DNA of 64,000 nucleotides from Squalus acanthias (taxonomy: Eukaryota). Under the pieces are notes generated by a model. The model worked only from the letters and a program-made list of their open reading frames with translations, ran no database searches and had not been told where the DNA came from. Every line of letters begins with the position of its first letter. Position 1 is the first letter of the stretch. The position numbers and the translations under genes are program-made. Below, piece after piece: positions 5,019 to 64,000 of the stretch. The DNA lies in the NCBI GenBank assembly GCA_030390025.1, contig CM059431.1, positions 150,228,001 to 150,292,000 of the forward strand, given 5' to 3'.

Positions 5019-5865
5019 TATGAACATTAACAGCAGCGAGAAGGGGATAGTAAATATTTGGTAATCCTCTCCTTCCCTTTCAGTATTCCGAAGGAACCGC
5101 TCCCTCCACAATATTCTGGTCCACTCCTTAATCACCACCAACAGCCGCACCCATCCCCACGGAACCTCCCCGTGCAAACGCAGGAGATGCAACACCGGCC
5201 TTTTTACCTTCTCCCTTCCCACTGTCCAGGGCCCCAAACACTCCTTCCAGGTGAAACAGCGATTTACTTGTACTTCTTGCAATTTAGTATACTGTATTCG
5301 CTGCTGACGATGCGGTCTCCTCTACATTTGGGAGACCAAATGCAGATTGGGTGATCGGTATGCGGAACACTTCCGTTCATTCCATAACTGTATCGCTGAG
5401 CTTCAGGTTTCCTGTCACTTTAATTCTCTATTCCTCTCCCATTCTGACATCACCGGCCTCTGCTTCTTATACTGTACCAATGAAGCTCAACTTAAGCTCG
5501 AGGAACAGCACTTCATCTTTCTGTTAGGCACATTACAGCCTACTGGACTCAGCAGTGAGTACTGCAATTACAGACCATAACCTCGACCCCTTTTTTTCAG
5601 ACGGCAGCTGTTGACGATTCTCCCATCCCCATTTGAAACATTTAACCACTGCTGCCTTCCACCCTATCACAGTCAATCCCTTTTGTTCTTTCCTCTCCTA
5701 CCCGCTTTCCCTGAAGGGTCACAGACCTGAAACGTTAACTCTTTCTCTCTCTACGAATGCTGCCTGACCTACTGAGTGTTTTTCACATGTTCTGTTGTTA
5801 TTCCAAAGTACTGTAGTTAACTGACACTGTTCAAGAATACTTTCCATGGAGCTCCTCGAACCCAT
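5019..5865 (-). pseudogene. GPR139-like GPCR first coding exon, disrupted by a Penelope-like insertion
   Basis: MGSRSSMESILEQCQLTTVLW (5865-5803) ...insertion... LPNIYYPLLAAVNVH + a|GTAAGT donor at 5013-5018; homologous to the exon at 29607-29787; upstream DNA homologous to 29897-30110. Confidence 0.75.
5066..5802 (+). mobile_element. Penelope-like element family A, GIY-YIG endonuclease 3' fragment
   Basis: Homologous to the 23952-24578 ORF (GDRYAEHFRS, EEQHFIFLLGTLQPTGL); terminal hammerhead partly deleted at ~5710-5740. Confidence 0.9.
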
Positions 5866-6489: not shown

Positions 6490-7200
6490 TCTCGGACAAT
6501 CATAGTCACAGAACCAATACTATCAATCAACATTCTCGAGTCCTCCATCACCATTCGAGTGTATATCCTGTTCCACCGGCAGGATAGACTCACCAGAGGC
6601 GGTGGCACAGGGATATGCAGTCGGCTGGGAGAGATCCTGCGAGTCCTCAACATTGCCTAAGGATATAATGAATTCTCATGGCTTCCAGTCAGATATGAGC
6701 AATGTCACTTCTTGATGATTACCGCCTACCGCCATCATTCTGCTGATGAATCATCACATATTCATGCTGAACACCAGTTGATGGGAGCACCGAGAGCAGA
6801 AAGAGCACAACATATAACGCTCTTGGTGGGGAGTGGGAGACTTCAATGTCCATCACCAAGAGTGACTCGGAAGCATCATCATTAACCAAGCCCTGAAGAA
6901 CAGAGCTGCCAGTATGGGATTGTGGCAGGTGATGGGAGAACCAACACGGGAAAATATCCTGCATGACGTCGTCATCACCAATCTAGATATCGCATATACA
7001 TCTGTCCATGAAAATATTAGTAGGACTGACTACTGCACAATATTTGTTTAGAATAAGTCTGGCCTTCACACAGAGGACACCATCCATCGTATTATTTGCC
7101 ACTACCATCGTGCTCAGTGGGAAGAAATTAGACAGATTGAAGCGATCCCACAACCATCATATCAGATTATTTCAAAGCTGTTATTTCCTTTCGTGAATGG
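6490..7200 (+). mobile_element. Decayed LINE apurinic endonuclease region (CR1/L2 group)
   Basis: Degenerate HRQDR-TRGGG, GDFNVHHQEW and REPTRGKNI-like motifs readable across frames. Confidence 0.7.
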
Positions 7201-35542: not shown

Positions 35543-36121
35543 GCCTTACCCAACGATCACTGCCTCCCCTCTCTCAGTGATGCCGTTCCCTGGGATGCTC
35601 AGCTCCAGTCTCTGTCGGACCAGTGTCGAGATATCAATTCCTGCTTCTGTCATCCCAGTGCATTTAAATTAATACACTTTCTTCCTGGAACAACTCTACT
35701 GTCCTTCCAACAATTGGCTTCTGTTGAGCTGTCAGCAACTCCGCTCTGTCCCATTTTTGGAGATAAAAAAGCTGAGATCACACTCAGTAATAAAGTACAT
35801 TTTATCAAAGGATCACTACCAGCTCAAAGGGCCCACCTCACACATAATTTCACAGAAGCAAGAGGAAAAATCATCTCACTCTTTCTATAATCCGCTTTCA
35901 CTCCGCGTTTGTTTGCTACCATCTATCTCTCCTCTATCTCTGCCAACCTTTCTCTCTCTCTCCCTTTCGCTATGAAATAATTTCACATCGCTCTATCTCT
36001 CCTCTATCTCCGTTACCCTCTCTCTCCCTATCTATATCTATTAACCTCTCCAATCTCTCTATCTCCATCTATCTCTCCTGTCTATTTCTGCCACTCTGCC
36101 CGACGTCCTCACTATGTCGTG

Positions 36122-37570
36122 CTCTCTCTCTCAGTCTCGGTCTCACTCTCTCTCAGTCTCGGTCTCACTCTCTCAGTCTCGGCCTCACTCTCAGTATCGG
36201 TCTCACTCTCTCTTAGTCTCGGTCTCACTCTCTCAGTCTCGGTCTCACTCTCAGTATCGGTCTCACTCTCTCTCAGTCTCGGTCTCACTCTCTCAGTCTC
36301 GGTCTCACTCTCTCTCAGTATCGGTCTCACTCTCTCTCAGTCTCGGTCTCACTCTCTCCCAGTCTCGGTCTCACTCTCTCTCAGTCTCGAACTCTCTCTC
36401 TCAGTCTCGTTCTCACTCTCTCTCAGTATCGGTCTTCACCTGACGAAGGAGCAGCGCTCCGAAAGCTTGTGGATTCAAATAACGCTGTTGGAATATAACC
36501 AGGTGCTGAGCGACTTCTCACATTTGCCCACCCCAGTCCAACACCGGCATCTCCACATTTTCTCTCTCTTCTCAGTCTCGGTCTCACTCTCTCTCAGTCT
36601 CGGTCTCACTCTCTCTCAGTCTCTGTCACTCTCTCAGTCTCGGTCTCACTCTCTCTCAGTCTCGGTCTCACTCTCTCTCAGTTTCGGTCTCACTCTCTCA
36701 CAGTCTCGGTATCACTCTCTCTCAGTCTCGGTCTCACTCTCTCTCAGTCTCGGTCTCACTCTCTCTCAGTCTCGGTCTCACTCTCTCTCAGTCTCGGTCT
36801 CACTCTCTCTCAGTCTCTGTCACTCTCTCAGTCTCGGTCTCACTCTCTCTCAGTCTCGGTCTCACTCTCTCTCAGTCTCTGTCACTCTCTCAGTCTCGGT
36901 CTCACTCTCTCTCAGTCTCGGTCTCACTCTCTCTCAGTCTCGGTCTCACTCTCTCTCAGTCTCTGTCACTCTCTCAGTTTCGGTCTCACTCTCTCTCAGT
37001 CTCGGTCTCACTCTCTCTCAGTCTCTGTCACTCTCTCAGTTTCGGTCTCACTCTCTCTCAGTCTCGGTCTCATTCTCTCTCAGTCTCGGTCTCACTCTCT
37101 CTCAGTCTCGGTCTCACTCTCTCTCAGTCTTGGTCTCGCTCTCTCAGTCTCGGTCTTACACTCTCAGTCTCGGTTTCACACTCTCTCAGTCTCGGTCTCA
37201 CTCTCTCTCCGCCTCGGTCTCACTCTCTCCAAGTCTCCTTCTCACTCTCTCTGTCTCGCGCTCTGTCTCTCAGTCTCGGTCTCACACTCTCTCAGTCTCT
37301 GTCTCACACTCTCTCAGTCTCGGTCTCACTCTCTCTCAGTCTCGGTCTCCCTCTCTCTCAGTCTCGGTATCACTCTCTCACAGTCTCAGTCTCATTCTCT
37401 CTCAGTTTCGGTCTCACTCTCTCTCAGTCTCGGTCTCACTCTCTCTCAGTCCCGATCTCACTCTCTCTCAGTCTCTGTCTCACTCTCTCAGTCTCGGTCT
37501 CACTCTCTCTCAGTTTCTATCTCAATCTCTCTCAGTTTCTGCCACATTCTCTCTCAGTCTCTATCTCACA
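36122..37570. repeat. 22-bp pyrimidine-rich minisatellite (tctctctcagtctcggtctcac)n
   Basis: Period 22 (20-24 variants) read directly. Confidence 0.97.
36436..36472 (+). ncRNA. Minimal type-I hammerhead ribozyme motif (family B) in a ~125-bp Penelope terminal fragment (36435-36558)
   Basis: tcac-CTGACGA-a-ggagc/gctcc stem II-GAAAgctt-gtgg; intact core. Confidence 0.8.
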
Positions 37571-49789: not shown

Positions 49790-50262
49790 AATGAGAAGTC
49801 GCACAACACCTGGTTATAGTCCAACAGATTTATTTAAAATTACAAGCTTTCGGAGCTGTTGCCCCTTCGTCAGGTAAAGGTACAATGAGGGAATCTACAG
49901 TATTACACAGTATATAAACACAGAAAACAATTTGTCTGCAGAGATACAATCTTTCAGGGAGGCATTACATCAAAGACACAACAGAGCACAGCCAAGACAA
50001 TGAGATGGGTCACAGGGGGTCCAACGTGTCAAATCCTGCCGTCTGCAGTTGACCTTTTAACCTTTTTTTTGTTTTTTTGTTGTGTTTTTTTTTAAACTGG
50101 GTAGACAGACAACGATGTCGAGTCACGTTCTGTAGCGTGACACAAACCCAATATCCCTATTGAGGCCGTCCTCATGGGTGCGGAACTTGGCTATCAGTTT
50201 CTGCACGATGATTTTGCGTTGTCGTGTGTCTCGAAGGCCGCCTTGGGGAACGCTAACCCGCT
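49790..50262 (-). mobile_element. Penelope-like element family B 3' end (GIY-YIG C-terminus, 3' UTR, hammerhead)
   Basis: Minus strand translates QGGLRDTRQRKIIVQKLIAKFRTHEDGLNRDIGFVSRY; terminal sequence matches 58581-58670. Confidence 0.85.
49840..49877 (-). ncRNA. Minimal type-I hammerhead ribozyme motif (family B)
   Basis: ttac-CTGACGA-a-ggggc/gctcc-GAAAgctt-gtaa; stem I covaries relative to tcac/gtga. Confidence 0.8.
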
Positions 50263-50530
50263 ATCTCCGCATCATGTATCACAGCACTCAGTCTCACCTT
50301 TATCTATCTCCCTCTGCTGGGGTCTCTCTGTATCACAGTGCCCAGTCTCACCTTTATCTATTTCCCTCTGATGGTGTCTCTCTGTATCATTGCTCACTCA
50401 GCTGCATACCTCTCCCTGCCCCCCTCTGCTGGTGACTCTCTATATTATTGCTCCCTCTACACTGTCCCATAAAATGCACCCAGGGCAGGCATAGCACGGG
50501 TTAGATTCAGGGTAAGGCTCCATCAACAGT

Positions 50531-53450: not shown

Positions 53451-55025
53451 AATCTGGACATGTAAAATGGATTATAAGCCTCTACAGAAATACTTGTTAC
53501 TAAAACAATAACCTCTTACATTGTACGGACAGTGTCTGTTTAACAAACTAATATCCCCAAGAATCTACCTCCTTTGCAACTCTCACATTGGAAATTGTTG
53601 GGCCCCATTGGGCTCAAAGGTACCCGGCGTTAAAACCAGCAGCTTCTCAACCATCTCCATTCCAGCTCAAACTGATGCAACAAAAAAGGACCTTCACGGA
53701 GGCGAGGGACCAACTTCTGCATCCAACGCCCACCCTGGTGCAAACCGGCACTTAATTGGTCCGCCTGTGATTCCAGACTCGGTTCTGCGAGCGACGCCTG
53801 CAATAAAACCAAAGCAAAATACTGCAGAGGCTGGAAACCTGAAATAAAGAGAGAAAAGTGCTGCATATGCTGAGCCATTCATGCAGTATCTGTGGGGTGC
53901 GGTGTGCGGGCGGGGGCGAGGGGAGGTGTCAGAGAGAGAAACAGAGTTAACGGCCTGAATTGTAATGCTTTGGTTGGTTGGGGGCAAGGGGGGAGAGTCG
54001 CTGGTACAACGGGCGGGAAACCCGGGAGAACGGGTTTCACACAGGCCCTGCCTCATTTAACGTCACCTGTGTTTCTTTTTGCCAATCTCCTTATATCTGG
54101 GTCCTCCGGTTACAGACCCTTCTGCCAGTGGAAGCAGTTTCTGCTTGTTTACTAATCTATTAAATTTCCTCTTAAACTTCTCTGCTCCAAGGAGTACTAC
54201 CCCAGCTTAATAACATAAGAAATAAGAGGAAGTGTAGACCATACGTCCCCTCGAGCCTGCTCCGCCATGCAATAAGCTGCTTCAGTTTATCCACACAACC
54301 AAAGTCTCCCATCCCTGGTACCATTCTAGTAAATCTGCTCCGCACCCTCTCTAAGGCCTTGACATCCTTCCTAAAGGGTGGCGCACAGAATTGTACACAA
54401 TTCTCAGCTGAGGATTAACCAGTGTTTTATAAAGGTTTAGGAAGGCAAAATAACAAATAATGCTATTTATGTGATGGGGTTAGAAGGGCGAGGTTAATCC
54501 AGTCAGCTGGATGTGTGAAAGAGACCGTGAGCTGAAAGAGCTCACTTGGAGTGGAGAGCATCGATCACGCAGTGTAACCCGGCGCAAACACTCCTGCACA
54601 GCCCCAGATATTACTTGTTTCGCACTTGGCACAGAAACGTATATTAAATGGTTTAGTTTATGATTGAATCATACTTCTCGAATTGTACTTCCCAACTCAG
54701 ATTCAAGGCCTCATTTATTTTCTTCTTCTGAGCCCCTGAACCTCATCTGGCAGCGTAATGTTGGCGAGTGGTGATCGATTGCCCTGGAACCAACAGGAAG
54801 AGACCTCAGAGGCCGGAAGGTCAAGGGAACAGTGTTTTCTGCAACCAATCGCGGTGCTTGAGTCGGACAGTCAGGTGAGTCAGTGTGAACCCTTGTTAAA
54901 ACAATTTATCGTTTAAAGGTTAAATCGAGATTTCGTTTGTCAAGGAAACAGTTTAACATTTGTTTGTGTTGTGTTTTCCTGGATTTCATATTATGAGTTT
55001 CAGTCACTTCAGTGCCAAGTGGACC

Positions 55026-55906
55026 ATAGAATCATAGAATGGTTACAGCACAGAAGGAGGCCATTCGGCCCGTCGATCCCGTGACGGCTCTTTGCAAGAG
55101 CACTTCAGCTAGTCCCACTCCCCGCCCTTTCCTCTAGTCCAGCATTTGTTTTCCTTCAGGTGCTTATCCAAATCCCATTTGAAGCCACGATTGAGTCTGC
55201 CTCCAAAACCCTTTCAGGCAGTGCATTAAAGATATTAACCACTCGCTGCATAAAAATATTTTTCTTCATGTCGCCGATGGTTCTTTTGCCAATCACCTTA
55301 AATCTGTGTCCCTCTGGCTCTCGATATCCGCAAAGGGAACAGGTTCTCTCTATCTACTCTCTCCAGACACCTCATGATTTTGAAAACATCTAACAAATCT
55401 CCTCTCAAGCTTCTCTGTTCTAAGGAAAAATAACCCCAGCTTATCTAGTCTATCCATGTAACTGAAGTCCCTCATTCCCTGGAACCATTCTCGTAAATCT
55501 TTTCTGCACCCTCGCTGAGGCCTCATCATCCTTCTTAAAGTGTGGTGTCCAGAATTGGACACAATACTCCAATTGAGGCCGAACCAGTGCTATGCCTCTA
55601 TTTATGAAGCCCAGGATCCCATATGTGTTTTTTTTTTACCGCATTCGCAACCTGCCCTGCCACATTCAACGATTTGTGCACATATATTTCGTATTCATGC
55701 TGGCACTGTTTCCTTTATTCCCCTGGCTTCACCTTCGCTGGCAATTCTATTACGTGGCATTATATCAAACGCCTTTTGGAAATCCATATACACCATATCA
55801 ACCGCATTGTCCTTATCAACCCTCTGTGTTACCTCATCAAAAAACTCAATCAAGTAGTTAAACACGAATTCCCTTAACAAATCAGTGCTGGGTTTCATTC
55901 ATTAAT
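55026..55906 (-). mobile_element. CR1 3' fragment running into the gap
   Basis: (catagaat)n tail; LIEFFDEVT...VYMDFQKAFD. Confidence 0.88.
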
Positions 55907-56106
55907 NNNNNNNNNNNNNNNNNNNNNNNNNNNNNNNNNNNNNNNNNNNNNNNNNNNNNNNNNNNNNNNNNNNNNNNNNNNNNNNNNNNNNNNNNNNNNN
56001 NNNNNNNNNNNNNNNNNNNNNNNNNNNNNNNNNNNNNNNNNNNNNNNNNNNNNNNNNNNNNNNNNNNNNNNNNNNNNNNNNNNNNNNNNNNNNNNNNNNN
56101 NNNNNN
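55907..56106. other. Assembly gap (200 N)
   Basis: Run of N; true size unknown. Confidence 1.
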
Positions 56107-56788
56107 GGAGCGCTGCACTGTCGGAGGGGCAGTACTGAGGGGGCGCTGCACTGTCGGAGAGGCAGTACTGAGGGAGCGCTGCGCTGTCGGAGGGGCAGTA
56201 CTGAGGGAGCGCTGCGCTGTCGGAGGGGCAGTACTGAGGGAGCGCTGCACTGTCGGAGAGGCAGTACTGAGGGAGCGCTGCGCTGTCGGAGGGGCAGTAC
56301 TGAGGGAGCGCTGCACTGTCGGAGGGGCAGTACTGAGGGAGCGCTGCACTGTCGAGAGGGCAGTACTGAGGGAGCGCTGCACTGTCGGAGGGGCAGTACT
56401 GAGGGAGCGCTGCACTGTCGGAGGGGCAGTACTGAGGGAGCGCTGCACTGTCGGAGCTGCCATCTTTCGGATGGTATGTTAAACCAAGGCCCCGTCTGCG
56501 CTCTCAGGTGGATGTAAAAGATCCCACGGCCCCTATTGGAAGAAGAGCAGGGAAGTTCTTCCCCGGTGTCCTTGGGCCAATATTTATCCCTCAATCAACA
56601 TCACTAAAACAGATTATCTGATCATTGTCACATTGCTGTTTTGGGAGCTTGCTGTGCGCAAATTGGCTGCCGCATTTCCTACATTACAACAGTGACTACA
56701 CTTCAGAAAAAGTACTTCATTGGCTGTAAAGCACTTTGGGATGCCCTGCATTCGGGCCAGGCATTGTAAAAATGCAGGGTCTTTCTTT
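56107..56788 (+). mobile_element. Deu-domain SINE whose 5' part is a homogeneous 33-bp minisatellite (56107-56455)
   Basis: About 10 near-identical units, then sequence colinear with 27672-27995. Confidence 0.9.
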
Positions 56789-57540
56789 TGATGTCGTATT
56801 CAGTGCACAGCGCTCGGACCAGAGTTATACTGCCGCCCAGTACTGCTGTCCATTTTTATTTTGAAATGATGGGGAATGCAGATTGCTGGCGCACTGCGAG
56901 CGTGTGGGGCTGTTACACAGGCATTTCGCCGCAGGGTCCTGCACAGTACCCGAGCTGCAGCAGAGCAGGGTTATACTGTCACCTGCGCACCGCCAGTCAG
57001 ACGCGAGGCTCGGCAACTCGTGGCTCCTGCCTTCGGGCGCCGCAGAGCCACGTCACCCGTCCGGTTATGGAGTTACACTGTCGCCTGGTTTAGTGGTTGT
57101 CAAACTCCTGACTGATGGGCGATTCACTCCCACCCCATTTTAGACACGGTAGAGTTATACTCTCGCCTGCGCGCTGCGACGGGGGTCCCACCATCGAGCC
57201 TGATGGGGAAGCAATACGATGGAGGCAGCGTATGTATCTAACCCGTGCTGTACCTGCCCTGAGTGTGTTGAATTGGACAGTGTAGAGGGAGCTTTACTCT
57301 GTATCTAACCCGTGCTGCACCTGCCCTGGGAGTGTTTGATGGGACAGTGTTGAGGGACTTGACTTGCTGCTCCTGGGATCTTTCGGCAGTGGAAATTTCT
57401 TCGGTGGGACGTCCAAACTCGCCCGCTCTCCTCTCCTGGTGCGGGCTGATCCCTCGCTTGGGTGTACCTTATTGATCCCGAGCAGCCGTGACCCTCAGTG
57501 TGTTGTGTATGTTTGACCTTGTGCCTTCTTGACCCCACAG

Positions 57541-57716
57541 CAGACGGGGAGGATGTCCCCCAGCCACTTTGCCCGAGTCTCAGGTTTGGTGGGGAGCCCA
57601 CTGACGGCCATGAACGCCAACCTGCTGCAAAGCAGGCTGGGACAGCTGATGCCGCCTGTCGCCGGTTTCCGGCCTTACTTCAGCCCGGCGACGGCTGGAC
57701 ACCTGCAGAACGTCAG
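57541..57716 (+). CDS. PATL1: Internal coding exon resembling PAT1 homolog 1 (mRNA decapping/P-body factor), proline-rich region
   Basis: Pyrimidine tract + cag acceptor ending at 57540, AG|GTATGG donor; QTGRMSPSHFARVSGLVGSPLTAMNANLLQSRLGQLMPPVAGFRPYFSPATAGHLQNVR resembles recalled vertebrate PATL1 ([46 protein letters not shown]...HLQNLR). Confidence 0.82.
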
Positions 57717-57842
57717 GTATGGGGAGTGCGGGAGCAGTGCCTGGGGGAGGGGACGGGACCTGTGCCCATCTGGCGAGGGTGTGGGTTTGCGCGCCGCTCA
57801 TTCGCTCCCGATCACCGGTGGAATATTTGACGACCACTCCAG

Positions 57843-58330
57843 CCTCGGCTAATCCGCAGCTCGCTCTGCCGGCCGGCCTCCCATCTTCCGCACTCCGTAC
57901 ACTTCGCCTCATCCCGAAACTCTGCTGCCCCATCTCCGAACTTACACCAAGTCCCGTTCGCCCATCACCCCTGTGCTTGCTGACCTGCATTGGCTCCCAG
58001 TTAAGCAACGCCTCGATTTTAAAATTCTCATCCTGCTGTTCAAATCCCTCCATGGCCTTGCCCCCACCCTCCCAATCTCTGTAACTTCCTACAACCCTCC
58101 GAGATCTCTGCGCTCCTCCAATTCTGGCCTTTTGCGCACCCACCCCGATTTCCATCACTCTACCATTGGCGGCCGTGCCTTCACCTGCGGAAGCCCCAAG
58201 CTCTGGAATTCCCTCCCTGACCCCCTCCCCCTCGCGCTCTCCTCCTTTAAGAAGCTCTTTAAAATCTACCTCTTTGACCAAGCTTTTGGTCACCTCTCCT
58301 AACATGTCCTCTTGTGTCTCGGTGTCAAAT
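57843..58330 (+). mobile_element. L2 3' fragment
   Basis: LADLHWLPVKQRLDFKIL...GGRAF...PKLWNSLP. Confidence 0.9.
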
Positions 58331-58515
58331 TACACCTGTGTCAGCCGTGACTCAGTGGGTAGCACTCTCGCCTCTGAGTCAGAAGGTTGTGTGTTCAAGT
58401 TCCACTCCAGAGACTTGAGCACAAAATCCAGGCTGACACTCCCAGTGCCAGTACTGAAGGGCAAATGTGAGAAGTCGCGCAACACCAGGTTATAGTCCAA
58501 CAGTTTTATTTGAAA

Positions 58516-58553
58516 TCACAAGCTTTCGGAGCGGCTGCTCCTTCGTCAGGTGA
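58516..58553 (-). ncRNA. Minimal type-I hammerhead ribozyme motif (family B)
   Basis: tcac-CTGACGA-a-ggagc/gctcc-GAAAgctt-gtga on the minus strand. Confidence 0.82.
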
Positions 58554-58580
58554 AGTGAAGAGATGTCACATCTCTTCACT

Positions 58581-58617
58581 TCACCTGACGAAGGAGCAGC
58601 GCTCCGAAAGCTTGTGA
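58581..58617 (+). ncRNA. Minimal type-I hammerhead ribozyme motif (family B)
   Basis: tcac-CTGACGA-a-ggagc/gctcc-GAAAgctt-gtga. Confidence 0.82.
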
Positions 58618-58732
58618 TTTCAAATAAAGCTGTTGGACTATAACCTGGTGTTGTGCGACTTCTCACATTTGTCCACCCCAGTCCAACACTGGCATCTCCA
58701 CATCATGACTACTGAAGGGAGCGTTGCACTGT

Positions 58733-59643
58733 CGCAGATGACACGAAAATTGGTGGAGTGGTAAATAGCGAGGAGGGAAGCCTCAGGCTACAGGACGATA
58801 TAGACGGATTGATCAAATGGGCAGAACAGTGGCAAATGGAATTTAACCCTGAAAAGTGTGAGGTGATTCATTTTGGGAGGACTAACAAGGCAAGGGAATA
58901 CACAATGAATGGTCGGACCCTAGGAAGGACAGAGGATCAGAGGGACCTTGGCGTGCATGTACATAGATCCCTGAAGGCAGCAGGACAGGTAGATAAGGTG
59001 GTTAAAAAGGCATATGGGATACTTGCCTTCATTAGCCGAGGCATAGAATATAAGAGCAGGGAGGTTATGATGGAGCTGTACAAAACGCTAGTTAGGCCAC
59101 AGCTGGAATACTGTGTGCAGTTCTGGTCGCCACACTATAGGAAGGATGTGATTGCATTGGAGACGGTGCAGAGGAGATTCACCAGGATGTTACCTGGGCT
59201 GCAGCGCTTCAGCTATGAAGAGAGACTGGACAGGCTGGGGTTGTTTTCCTTAGAGCAGAGAAGGCTGAGGGGGGACCTGATTGAGGTGTACAAAATTATG
59301 AGGGGCATAGATAGGGTAGATAGAAAGCAACTTTTCCCCTTCGTAGAGGGGTCAATAACCAGGGGCATAGTTTCAAGGTAAGGGGCAGGAGGTTTAGAGG
59401 GGATTTGAGGAAACATTTTTTCACCCAGAGGGTGGTGGGAATCTGGAACTCACTGCTTGAAAGGGTGGTAGAGGCAGGAACCCTCAACATTAAAGCAGCA
59501 TTTAGATGAGCACTTGAAACGCCATAGCACACAAGGCTATGGACCAAGTGCTGGAAAATGGGATGAGAATAGACAGGGCTTGATGGCCGGCGTGGACACG
59601 ATGGGCTGAAGGGCCTCTTTCTGTGCTGTATAACTCTATGACT
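58733..59643 (+). mobile_element. Young 5'-truncated CR1
   Basis: Uninterrupted 207-aa RT C-terminal ORF (58758-59381); ctctatga tail. Confidence 0.95.
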
Positions 59644-59959
59644 TTTGGCGGGGTCGTCTTTCAGATGTAGTAAAGGGGCCTTCAGGAAGAGTGACCATAA
59701 TATGATAGAATTTTATATTGAGTTTGAAATTGATTTAGTTAAATCCGAAACTAGGGTCTAAAAGCAAGCTATGTAGGTACGAGGGCGAGTTAGCTAAGCT
59801 AGATTGGGAAACTGCATTAAAGGGTATGACGGTAGACAAGTAATGGCTAGCGTTTAAAAAAATTAACACATAATTTACAACAAATATACATTCCTTTAAG
59901 ACACAAAAACCCCACAGGGAAAGTGGTCCAACCGTGGCTAACAAGAGAAGTTAAAGATA

Positions 59960-60093
59960 GTTCTGACGAAGGGTTTCGACCTGAAACGCTAACTCTGTTT
60001 CTCTCTCCACGGATCTTGCCTGGCCTGCTGAGTTTTTCCAGCGTTTTCTGTTGTTACAATTTTCCAGCATCCGCAGTATTTTCTTATCGTATC
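59960..60093 (+). mobile_element. 134-bp Penelope family A terminal insertion beginning at the hammerhead motif (59959-59994)
   Basis: 12-bp TSD AAGTTAAAGATA at 59948-59959 and 60094-60105; CTGACGA...GAAA core, cleavage-site U changed to C. Confidence 0.85.
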
Positions 60094-61390
60094 AAGTTAA
60101 AGATAATGTTAGATCAAAGGAAGAGGCTGAGAATGTTGCCAAAAAGAGGAGTAAGCCTGAGGATTGGGAGGATTTTAGAATTCAACAAAGGAGGACCAAG
60201 AAATTGATAAAGAAAGGGAAAATAGAATATGAGAGTCAACTAGCGACAGACATAAAAACAGATTGTAAAAGCTTCTGTAGGTATGTAAAAAGGAAAAGAC
60301 TAGCGACAGTAAATGTGGATCCCTGACGGGCTGAGACAAGAGAAATTATAATGGGGAATAAGGAAATGGCAGAGAAATTAAACAAATACTTTGTGTCTGT
60401 CTTCAAGGAAGAAGACGCAAAAAAATTCCCAGAAATAGTGAAGAACCAAGGGTCTAGCGAGAATGAGGAACTGAAAGAGATTGAGAACATAAGAAATCAG
60501 AGCAGGAGTCGGCCACACAGCCCCTCGATCCTGCTCCGCCATTCAACAAGATCATGGCTGATCGTCGACCTCAACTCCACTTTCCCGCCCGATCTCCATA
60601 TCCCTTGATTCCCCTAGAGTCCAAAAATCTATCTGTCTCAGCCTTGAATATACTCAACGATTCAGCAATCACAGCCCTCTGGGGCAGAGAATTCCAAAGA
60701 TTCACAACCCTCTGAGTGAAGAAATTCCACCTCATCTCAGTCCTAAATGGTCTACCCGTTATCCTGAGACTATGCCCCCTAGTTCTAGACACTCCAGTCG
60801 GGGAAACAACCTCCCCTTCAGGATCTTGTATGTTTCAATGAGATCACCTCTCATTCTTCTAAACTCCAGAGAGTATCGGCCCATTCTGCACAATTTCTCT
60901 TCATAGGACAGCCCTCTCATCCCAGGAATCAATCTAGTGAACCTTCGTTGCACTGCCTCCAAGGCAAGTATATCCTTCCTTAGATAAAGAGACCAAAACT
61001 GTGCACAGTACTCCAGGTGTGGTCTCACCAAGTGTAAGCTTTTTATTTCGACTGGCATTAAATTGACAGCAAGACCAATTCTTTTGAAACAATTTGGAAT
61101 AAGTTTGTGAAACACACACACACTCATGCACATCAAAACAGTAGTCTACTGGTATCTATTGTCTCTACTCGATTACAACAGGTAAGGTAATGGGTTAGAT
61201 TTAAACAGACTTGTACTTCCCTGAGTCAAGCAAGGCCGTTTTCCTTGCTTCTTGGTCTGGTCTGTCGAGGGAGGGCTTCCTGCTTTTACGCGTGGTCATC
61301 CAGAGAGAGAACGAGAGCCTTTGGGTTCCTTGTTTTATATTTTTTAAGTCCATTGTCTCTCGTCTAAATTGCTAAGACCCCAGGATTGGG

Positions 61391-62025
61391 GTCTCTACAT
61401 TGGGGAGACCAAACGCAGATTGGGTGACCGCTTTGCGGGACACATCCGTTCAGTCCGTAAGTGTGACCCCGAGCTTCCGATCGCCTGTCATTTTAATTCA
61501 CCTCTCCACGCCCACTCGGACCTCACCGTCCTCGGCCTCGTGCATTGTTCCACGGAAGCTCAGCGTAAGCTCCAGGAACAGTACCTCATCTTCCGTTTAG
61601 GCACTTTACAGCCTTCCGGACTCAATATCGAGTTCAACAATTTCAGATCATAACCCCGGCCCCTACCACATATATACACATTTTATCCACCCTTTTGGTC
61701 CGTGCCTTTTTCCTTCTTTTCTCTCTCTCCCCCTACGGCAGCTGTCTCTCATTCTGCCAGCATTTCACACCTCACCTTTTGTTTCTTAACCTGTCCCATT
61801 ACCATCTCGTCTTGCCTTGAGCATCTCTTAATGTCTCTACTTACCATAGACCCCCCCCTTTTGTTCTTTTATTCCTCCCCCCAGCCTCCCCCTTGCATTT
61901 TTATCTGTTTCATTTCCTGCTCTTTTCTCAGTTCTGACGAAGGGTTTCGACCTGAAATGTTAACTCTGTTTCTCTCCACGGATGTTGCCTGGCCTGCTGA
62001 GTTTTTCCAGCGTTTTCTGTTGTTG
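61391..62025 (+). mobile_element. Penelope-like family A 3' end inserted in the LTR
   Basis: LYIGETKRRLGDRFAGH...EQYLIFRLGTLQPSGLN; 13-bp TSD CCCCAGGATTGGG at 61378-61390 and 62026-62038. Confidence 0.92.
61930..61965 (+). ncRNA. Minimal type-I hammerhead ribozyme motif (family A)
   Basis: agtt-CTGACGA-stem II-GAAAtgtt-aact; ACGT palindrome decayed to ATGT. Confidence 0.72.
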
Positions 62026-62631
62026 CCCCAGGATTGGGTCTTAGTTTCATGGCAGTTCGTGATTGGCTTTCCTTTGAACATGTGTCTGTCTGCGGTGGCT
62101 GGTGCCATTTCTTGATTAAGTTAATTGTTTGTTGACACCTTTTAATGGCTCTTGGGTTTCGCTGGGTTTTCGATGCTGTCTCTGTGGGGGTTATCCTGTT
62201 TTGCAGGTTTCCGTTAAGTTTCGCGCTGTTGCCTTGAGCTCCACTCACCCAGGGGAGATCCATACATATTAAATTCATCTTTATTACATACATCTTCTAT
62301 TAATAGTCTTGAGTCCATCATAACATATATTTTTATTCTTACACAAGGCCCTGTACAATTGTAGCAAGACTTCCTTGCTCTTACACTCCAACCCCCTTGC
62401 AATAAAGGCCAACGTGCCATTTACCATCCTTATTGCTTGCTGTACCTGCATGCTAGCTCTCTGTGTTTCTTGCACGAGGACACCCAAATCTCTCTGAACA
62501 CCAACATTTGAAAGTTTCTCACCATTTAAAAAATATTCTGTTTTTCTATTCTTCCGACCAAAGTGAATAACCTCATTTCCCTACATTATACTCCATCTGC
62601 CACCTTACTGCCCACTCACTTAGTCTATCTA

Positions 62632-63134
62632 CAGTGTTCTTGCTCAGGCCAACATCCCCAGCATCGAAGCTTTGACCACGCTCGATCAGCTCCGATGGAC
62701 GGGTCACATTGTCCGCATGCCCGATACGAGACTCCCAAAACAAGCGCTCTACTCGGAGCTCCGGCATGGCAAGAGAGCTCCAGGTGGGCAGAGGAAACGC
62801 TTTAGGGACACCCTCAAAGCCTCCTTGAAAAAGTGTAACATCCCCACCGACACCTGGGAATCCCTGGCCCAAGACCACACAAAGTGGAGGAGAAGCATGC
62901 GGGAAGGCGCCAAATACCTCGAGTCTCTTCGCCGGGAGCAAGCGGAAGCCAAGCGCAAACAGCGCAAGGAGCGCACGTCAACCCAGGCACCCTACCCACC
63001 CGCCCCTTCAACCACCGTCTGCCCCACCTGTGACAGAGACTGTAGGTCCCGCATTGGACTCATTAGTCACCTGCGAACTCATTTTTAATGTGGAAGCAAG
63101 TCATCCTCGGTTCCGAGGGACTGCCTAAGAAGAG
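62632..63134 (+). mobile_element. Young RTE-clade LINE 3' end
   Basis: Intact 138-aa ORF end (QLRWTGHIVRMPDTRLPK...CPTCDRDCRSRIGLISHLRTH); 10-bp TSD AGTCTATCTA at 62622-62631 and 63135-63144. Confidence 0.93.
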
Positions 63135-64000
63135 AGTCTATCTATATCACTTTGCAGACTCTTTGTGTTCTCCTCACAGCTTACTATCCCACCTAGCTTT
63201 GTATCATCAGCAAACCTGGGTACATTACACTCGGTCCCTTCATCTAGGTCATTAATATAGATTGTAAATAACTTAGGCACCAACACTGCTCCTTGCGGCA
63301 CCCCGCTAGTTACAGCCTGTCAACCTGAAAAAGATCCATTTATCCCTACTCTCTGTTTTCTGTCTGTTAACCAATCCTCTATCAATGCTACTATATTACC
63401 CCCAACCCCATGAGCTCTAATCTTGTGTAATAACCTTTTATGTGGCACCTTATCGAATGCCTTTTGGAAATCCAAATATATTACATCCACTGGTTCCCCT
63501 TTATCTACCCTGCTAGTTACATCCTCAAAAAACCCTAATCAAGTTGTCAAACACGATTTCCCTTTCATAAAACCATGTTGACTCTGCCTAATCATGTTAT
63601 GATTTTCTAAGTGCCCTGATACCACTTCCTTAACAATGGATTCCAGCATTTTCCCGACGACTGATGTCAGGATTAATATTAGATTAAAATTAATATTAAT
63701 AAAAAAAAGTACTGGAGAAATTAATGGGACTGAAAGCCGATAAATCCCCTGGACCTGATGGCTGACATTGTAGGATTTTGAAAGAGTTGGCTACAGAGAT
63801 AGTGGATGCATTGGTTGTCATTTTCCAAAATTTCATAGATTCTAGAACGGTTCCTGTGGATTGGCAGGTAGCAAATGTAGCCCCACTATTTAAGAAAGGA
63901 GGGAGAGAGAAAACTGGGAACTACAGACCAGTTAGCCTGACATCAGTAGTAGGGAAAATGCTAGAATCTGTTATTAGGGACGTGGTAACAGGGCAATTAG

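What the first reader, a model, noticed from the sequence alone, without database searches (positions are those of the whole stretch)
58462..58709. Palindromic 248-bp insertion with a hammerhead on each strand
Seen: ~105-bp near-perfect inverted arms around a 1-nt centre (58567), each with an intact hammerhead core, bounded by an exact 10-bp TSD and lacking any ORF. Established: Penelope insertions often show an inverted partial terminal repeat. Inference: transcription in either direction gives one ribozyme plus its antisense, so a long hairpin competes with ribozyme folding; it lies in the presumed PATL1 intron and could yield dsRNA. It may be a mobile non-autonomous unit in its own right.
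Basis: partly seen in the sequence, partly recalled or inferred. Interest (0 to 1): 0.7.

Follow-up and report, generated by a model that had tools for sequence, protein, structure and literature searches.

The report
Head-to-head Penelope stump; neighbours share centres
This palindrome is real but is the ordinary short footprint of a very abundant Penelope-type jumping gene, likely made when both cut DNA strands copied the ribozyme-bearing front end of the element's RNA; the one surprise is that some sister palindromes up to a few megabases apart carry the same rare centre, likely copied from one another.

Summary
Observation confirmed: 107-bp inverted arms around 58567, a minimal hammerhead motif on each strand, exact 10-bp TSD, inside a SINE about 750 bp past an exon. 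It is a stump of an endonuclease-bearing Penelope-like element. A 33-mer of it has 61,619 exact matches in the genome. A full-length relative encodes an 891-aa RT protein whose ATG is the palindrome's right end. The inverted-plus-tail layout and opposite-strand hammerheads are in print, and this scan found such palindromes before on other DNA of this genome. It is not a mobile unit: its exact centre occurs twice in 3.7 Gb, and centres vary between copies while ends are fixed. Likely mechanism: both target strands prime cDNA at two internal sites near the RNA's 5' end, the cDNAs stop near the start site, and they join. The ribozyme is predicted silent (needs a dimer; hairpin favoured by 64 kcal/mol). 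Side finding, not seen in my searches: three rare centres occur only in local groups (0.55-2.4 Mb) with different flanks and sometimes swapped tails, pointing to centre copying between neighbours; reads did not confirm the copy counts. PATL1 is unconfirmed.

The parts
58452..58461 (.). left copy of the 10-bp target-site duplication
   Evidence: unbroken SINE copies carry the site once
58462..58566 (-). inverted, tail-less pLTR arm; runs from family position -137 to about -33 (0 = the AT of the element's ATG)
58516..58553 (-). minimal type I hammerhead motif of the left arm (4-nt loop II)
58567..58567 (.). centre base; read on the left arm's sense strand it is a G not templated by the element, possibly a cap copy (inferred)
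58568..58709 (+). tail-bearing pLTR arm, family position -137 to the start codon
58581..58617 (+). minimal type I hammerhead motif: stem I 58581-84/58614-17, core 58585-91, stem II 58593-605, GAAA 58606-09, predicted cut after 58613 (CUU)
58675..58709 (+). 35-bp 'tail' present on one arm only; ATG at 58705-58707 is the start codon of the autonomous ORF
   Evidence: tail described in PMC11167929 and PMC8557442
58710..58719 (.). right copy of the TSD
58335..58738 (+). host tRNA-derived SINE-like repeat (A- and B-box-like motifs by eye at 58347-60 and 58393-405), interrupted by the insertion
   Evidence: family name not tested
57540..57716 (+). upstream exon of the host gene (PATL1-like only from recall)
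   Evidence: RNA-like contigs cover 57538-57718 only; AG and GT flanks; name unconfirmed
36432..36558 (+). second, single-armed stump of the same family
49790..50277 (-). third family member: about 470-bp tail-less arm with the ORF's C-terminus, joined to about 17 bp of tail end in the opposite orientation
   Evidence: 38 of 43 residues identical to the full-length protein

Best explanation
The palindrome is a short head-to-head insertion of a very abundant Penelope-like retrotransposon, likely built at this site when both cut strands of the target each primed a copy of the front end of the element's RNA and the two copies were joined. Steps: (1) the element's RT-endonuclease makes a staggered cut, giving the TSD (TSD shown; cut inferred). 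(2) One strand primes at the start codon and the other about 36 nt upstream, giving one arm with a tail and one without (ends shown; priming inferred from the Anolis in vitro work). (3) On a transcript begun at the pLTR promoter these sites lie only 90-140 nt from the 5' end, so both cDNAs stop at or near the start site just ahead of the hammerhead, often with an extra G (clustering shown; start site and cap inferred). (4) The two cDNA ends are joined through 1-4 shared bases or a patch copied from nearby DNA (shown at junctions; timing inferred). In host pre-mRNA the antisense arm is always made first and the motif needs a partner, so it is predicted not to cleave.
For: Full-length copy L134: inverted pLTR + pLTR + 891-aa ORF + pLTR; RT passes the Pfam cut-off. 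59 of 61 palindromes have one arm ending at -5..0 and one at -47..-27. TSD of 8 or more in 53 of 61, versus 0 of 302 mismatched-flank controls. Each arm often holds sequence the other lacks: the tail-less arm reaches further 5' in 24 of 61, the tailed arm in 26, so neither is a plain fold-back of the other. 73 of 122 arm starts lie at -135..-119; -127 is the A of TCACTT, 30 nt after TATATAT. Non-C bases before that A: G 66, T 21, A 13 of the first 100 rows (recounted by hand); three palindromes have G-ACTTCA on both arms. Two internal RT start sites, both-strand cleavage and extension, and use of uncleaved RNA were shown for Anolis Poseidon (PMC11167929).
Against: The cap reading is only moderate: in 30 of 38 paired G arms the G can also be read as the partner arm's base, and arms with no partner found give 12 G to 6 A (T rows not fetched). 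No RNA 5' end was observed. The window's own arms start at -137, not at the main cluster, and differ at two sites that are polymorphic in the family, which a single RNA does not explain. In Anolis the start sites lie about 111-118 nt inside the ORF, not at the ATG. The 61 palindromes were parsed as divergent pairs, so single-armed insertions are left out; in a tail-selected sample 20 of 30 had an inverted arm.
Confidence: 0.8

Rival explanations
1. The palindrome is a non-autonomous unit that is copied whole.
For: Size is uniform (median 210 bp, 49 of 61 at most 260 bp). Some junctions recur: 175 copies of one type. Some local groups share a centre with the tail on the same arm.
Against: The window's centre has 2 matches. 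47 geometries in 61. Copies with one centre have the tail on either arm and differ at outer alleles on both arms. Recurrent junctions sit at the start-site cluster with 1-4 shared bases.
Confidence: 0.06
2. The inverted arm arises by self-priming on an antisense template, as proposed in PMC3846280, or by fold-back of one cDNA.
For: Arms agree at a diagnostic site in 85 of 94 palindromes. Many junctions are small hairpins. The pLTR TATA reads in both directions.
Against: In 24 of 61 the tail-less arm extends further 5' while the other arm alone has the tail. Arm starts cluster at the sense Inr-like site, with G on both arms in 3 cases. 9 of 94 disagree at a non-CpG diagnostic site against a 1.05% background (P about 7e-7).
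Confidence: 0.1
3. This insertion has a host function as an intronic dsRNA or regulated ribozyme.
For: It lies in an intron of a transcribed gene and is predicted to fold into a very stable hairpin (z not computed; -200.5 kcal/mol).
Against: It is young (96-99% identical to the family) and one of thousands; nothing sets it apart. Single minimal hammerheads did not cleave in PMC4209133.
Confidence: 0.04

Closest known systems
Endonuclease-bearing Penelope-like elements with inverted pLTR, one-sided tail and TSD (Adineta Pen2a_Av, PMC3846280; overview in PMC8557442)
   Same: Direct pLTRs, adjacent inverted pLTR, 30-40 bp tail on one side, TSD, TATA plus TCACT Inr-like motif in the pLTR.
   Different: Here the minimal two-arm stump is the commonest product and runs to tens of thousands of arms; that paper favours antisense self-priming, whereas these copies point to two sense-RNA cDNAs.
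Anolis Poseidon PAc (PMC11167929)
   Same: Two internal RT start sites bracketing the tail, cleavage and extension of both strands, hammerhead in the pLTR left uncleaved in inserted copies.
   Different: Start sites here map to the ATG and about 36 nt upstream, not inside the ORF; the hammerhead lies wholly in the 5' UTR; the main text I read does not treat how the inverted arm is joined.
Minimal type I hammerheads of metazoan PLEs (PMC4209133)
   Same: Short helix I, extra base before stem II, palindromic AGCU in place of helix III; pairs 100-700 bp apart on opposite strands are reported there for Schistosoma.
   Different: Nothing essential; activity of this sequence is untested.
L1 twin priming and templated insertions (recalled; 10.1101/2024.08.27.596794 named in earlier scan notes, not read)
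   Same: Both target ends prime; junctions have microhomology or patches from nearby DNA (L035 holds a 134-bp inverted copy of DNA about 0.6 kb away).
   Different: L1 inverts non-overlapping parts of one RNA; here both arms copy the same stretch. Sharing of whole centres between palindromes megabases apart was not found in my searches.
Non-LTR retrozymes (PMC7229834, listing only; 10.64898/2026.07.22.740005, listing and a term search)
   Same: Short non-coding hammerhead-bearing repeats linked to PLEs.
   Different: Those are head-to-tail tandem units; this is head to head and its junction is not a family constant.

Membership tests
EN+ Penelope-like element | single ORF with RT in the autonomous partner | tested here: met
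   L134 891 aa, PF00078 35.4 bits, cut-off 29.6
EN+ Penelope-like element | C-terminal GIY-YIG endonuclease with CCHH motif | tested here: inconclusive
   VVY..YIG and C-x4-C-x2-C/H residues are visible in the translation (motif recalled), but Pfam and PDB searches gave no endonuclease hit
EN+ Penelope-like element | direct pLTRs flanking the ORF and an adjacent inverted pLTR | tested here: met
   251-bp direct repeats at 97.6% and a 133-bp inverted copy in L134
EN+ Penelope-like element | 30-40 bp tail on one side | tested here: met
   35 bp in the window; 59 of 61 sisters
EN+ Penelope-like element | hammerhead motif in the pLTR | tested here: met
Penelope/Poseidon clade specifically | RT phylogeny | not tested
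   no reference RTs were aligned
minimal type I hammerhead | core CUGANGA/GAAA/UH, helix I and II, palindromic 15.2-16.2, extra base after A9 | tested here: met
   against PMC4209133; Rfam has no match
minimal type I hammerhead | self-cleavage (as dimer or protein-assisted) | not testable with these tools
   needs in vitro assay
non-autonomous unit copied whole (MITE or retrozyme) | constant internal junction across dispersed copies | tested here: not met
   2 exact matches of the centre; 47 geometries in 61
non-LTR retrozyme | head-to-tail tandem monomers | tested here: not met
   head-to-head single pair

The most novel reading that the evidence does not exclude
Penelope palindromes in this genome copy their centres from one another over megabase distances. 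A new insertion's two cDNA ends, or a later break at the hairpin tip, invade a neighbouring palindrome and take over its junction while keeping their own flanks, tail side and outer alleles. Rare junctions then act as natural barcodes of local homology search in the germ line, and the same copies show that Penelope inverts by two cDNAs from capped sense RNA, sometimes from two different RNAs.
Probability: 0.6. Interest if true: 0.62.

Novelty: new member of a known kind. Interest (0 to 1): 0.4.

Why it matters
The locus itself is ordinary. The family matters in two ways. How Penelope elements make inverted ends is called undefined in PMC8557442, and thousands of young stumps give sharp predictions (start site at -127, cap-derived G, two cDNAs) for the existing in vitro system. 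If neighbours really share centres, thousands of short palindromes are exchanging sequence locally, which would bias dating of these repeats and give a genome-wide readout of how far a broken end searches for homology.

Tried and rejected
Rfam scan of the window: no match. Gene name: Pfam on 43 plus-strand frames from 52967 on gave no PAT1 hit; the exon peptide had no relative at E<=0.001 and only sub-0.9 Atlas hits. Pfam missed the endonuclease; PDB gave nothing under E 0.6. Expression: no RNA holder on record was listed; contigs cannot show editing, strand or ends, and repeat contigs swamp the palindrome. Read check of the four-copy centre was inconclusive: both samples hold a contig across the junction with one other letter at about single-copy depth (26.9 in X1, 22.6-23.7 in X2-X4), one sample has a further contig with the junction followed by other sequence, X1 was 55% read and 176 pieces were not shown. 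A sparse sample of 39 palindromes over C1 14.7-116 Mb, chosen for a -127 start, showed only recurrent junction types and no private shared one. Segmental duplication was rejected for the local groups except L100/L102, L014/L015 and L293/L294, which share flanks and were counted once or left out. Hammerhead cleavage as the cause of 5' truncation was rejected: arms keep the cut site and start about 35 nt upstream of it. A tally string had 102 letters by a typing slip; the counts given are a hand recount.

Full report
Observation. The sequence at 58462-58709 is as described. Arms 58460-58566 and 58568-58674 pair with one indel and two mismatches. A 10-bp duplication flanks it, and unbroken copies of the host SINE carry that site once. 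Each strand has a minimal type I hammerhead motif with AGCU in place of helix III and a CUU cut triplet. Rfam has no match. The right arm has 35 extra bases that end on an ATG. RNA-like contigs of 2.5 kb from two runs of one study match only 57538-57718 in 55000-64000, so the insertion likely lies in an intron about 750 bp after a donor site. The peptide resembles PATL1 from recall only; searches did not name it.

What it is. The genome (3.7 Gb, shark-like by recalled repeat content) holds 61,619 exact matches to a 33-mer of the arm. All 40 scored places of a whole-unit search cover at least 225 of 248 bases at 90-100% identity. L134 is a full-length element: inverted pLTR, pLTR, 891-aa ORF with RT, pLTR. 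Its ATG is the ATG at the palindrome's right end, so the palindrome is two copies of the element's 5' leader. In a sample chosen only by the tail, 20 of 30 loci (the window included) had an inverted arm within the fetched flank.

Is it copied as a unit? No. The 25-nt centre occurs twice, here and on C5 with the tail on the other side. Among the 30 closest copies, 26 centres parsed and gave 22 different strings. I then took divergent arm pairs from C1 0-14.6 Mb: loci from the first 30 matches and the 100 listed matches. Single-armed, broken and widely spaced insertions were left out, as was one duplicate. Of 61 pairs, 59 have one arm ending at -5..0 and one at -47..-27; 53 have a TSD of 8 or more against 0 of 302 controls; there are 47 junction geometries; median size is 210 bp. 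Fixed outer ends, own TSD and variable centre mean the mirror is built at each landing.

How it likely forms. PMC11167929 (main text read, parts 1-2 of 4) shows that Anolis Poseidon cuts and extends both target strands, starts RT at two internal sites that bracket the tail, and uses uncleaved RNA. The two fixed ends here fit those two sites. The tail-less arm reaches further 5' in 24 of 61 pairs and the tailed arm in 26, so each arm needs its own template read; a fold-back cannot give both. 73 of 122 arms start at -135..-119. Position -127 is the A of TCACTT, 30 nt after TATATAT; PMC3846280 (passages and Discussion read) notes a TATA and TCACT motif in a rotifer pLTR. Where the base before that A is not the templated C, it is G in 66, T in 21 and A in 13 of the first 100 rows of 2,651 (hand recount; part of the T rows is a subfamily variant). 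Three palindromes carry G-ACTTCA on both arms. Against this, the G is also readable as the partner's base in 30 of 38 paired cases, and arms without a partner found give 12 G to 6 A. I infer run-off at a capped 5' end, with moderate confidence. The window copy starts both arms at -137 with one untemplated base; among the closest copies G precedes that start in 13 of 25 untemplated cases and C (the partner's mirror) in 10. Arms agree at a non-CpG diagnostic site in 85 of 94 pairs (38 disagreements expected at random), but 9 disagree against a 1.05% background. The window copy is itself discordant there and in loop II. So arms mostly come from one kind of RNA, and about a tenth involve a second template.

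Ribozyme. Head-to-head order puts the antisense arm first in either direction. The hairpin is predicted at -200.5 kcal/mol against -136.7 with the hammerhead forced. PMC4209133 (parts 1-2 of 4 read) found single minimal hammerheads inactive and reports pairs 100-700 bp apart on opposite strands. The motif is therefore predicted silent in the host transcript; dsRNA is plausible but untested.

Unexpected: neighbours share centres. Group A: one junction has 4 matches in the genome, all at C1 12.21-14.62 Mb, with four different flanks; the tail is on one arm in three and on the other arm in one. Three in 14.6 Mb would predict about 760 if it recurred freely. Group C: 3 matches, all at C1 3.43-3.98 Mb, two of them one duplicated locus. 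Both groups were picked because I saw them shared locally; the test was whether they occur elsewhere, and they do not. L008 and L018 came from a genome-wide similarity search, yet their junction has 2 matches, 1.07 Mb apart on C3 (chance about 6e-4, about 4e-3 over the six shared groups in that set). They have swapped tails, and one is G/G and the other A/A at the outer diagnostic site. Group B: a junction with 6 matches, of which the 2 with an arm-specific variant lie 0.9 Mb apart; a sister junction has 175 matches, and of 4 with that variant in the first 100 rows 2 lie in the same region and 2 on other contigs. Shared centre with private ends fits copying of the centre, either as a patch during insertion or as later conversion after a break at the hairpin. 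L035's centre holds a 134-bp inverted copy of DNA about 0.6 kb away, and earlier scan notes report such patches, which raised the insertion-time version to about even. PMC3300023 (abstract only) reports that unspaced inverted repeats trigger homologous repair. Against: the window's own junction and several others recur across contigs; a sparse sample of 39 over 100 Mb showed no private sharing; and public contigs confirmed the group A junction in two samples at about one copy's depth but not four copies. An assembly artefact is not excluded (about 10%), nor local hopping of a unit (about 15%). The window copy is not in such a group.

Literature. The layout is known: PMC8557442 (nine passages read), PMC3846280, PMC4209133. 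Searches (listings only, apart from the papers named) showed no paper on shark Penelope palindromes or on centre sharing between them; subscription papers and Repbase were not searched, and no supplements were read, where the Anolis junction data could bear on this. 10.64898/2026.07.22.740005 was only searched for terms. Earlier notes of this scan reached the two-ended model on other loci of this genome and local patches; a word search for shared junctions between neighbours found none.

Verdict. A confirmed but ordinary member of a known kind, found many times by this scan. Interest 0.4 rests on the testable inversion mechanism and the local centre sharing, which needs a whole-genome count and long reads.

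Noticed in passing
G000 C1:12.21-14.62 Mb (L194-L197); C1:3.43-3.98 Mb (L288-L290); C3:12.92 and 13.99 Mb (L291, L292); C1:8.77-13.55 Mb (L139, L145, L154, L173): Palindromes with different flanks and TSDs share a rare centre only with neighbours, sometimes with the tail on the opposite arm.
   Followed up: partly
L193:4323-4506 and 5533-5712; L159:263-479 and 6709-6936: Two further pairs 1.2 kb and 6.4 kb apart with the same junction geometry and different TSDs; genome-wide counts not made.
   Followed up: partly
hammerhead loop II, window 58598-58600 and 58533-58536: A one-base insertion in loop II differs between the two arms in 17 of 22 palindromes that have one: likely an RT error hot spot at the hairpin, or short conversions.
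   Followed up: partly
L035:1281-1424: Centre filler is a 134-bp inverted copy (98.5%) of DNA about 0.6 kb upstream; fillers in L067 and L169 had no such source in the DNA held.
   Followed up: yes
window 59963-59984 and 61934-61955: Two hammerhead-like cores of another sequence type (CTGACGAAGGGTTTCGACCTGAAA), probably a second Penelope-like family.
   Followed up: no
window 58741-59600: LINE fragment with a weak RT hit (PF00078 E 0.013) cuts the host SINE short 20 bp after the TSD.
   Followed up: no
window 36000-36900: Single-armed stump sits inside a long CT-rich tandem repeat.
   Followed up: no
window 62624-63085: Weak C2H2 zinc-finger hit at the end of an open frame (E 0.00087, below cut-off).
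   Followed up: no
L134:2264-5396 on the minus strand; several G000 places: Near-intact autonomous copies exist (open frames of 800-920 aa), so the family is recent and may still be active.
   Followed up: partly
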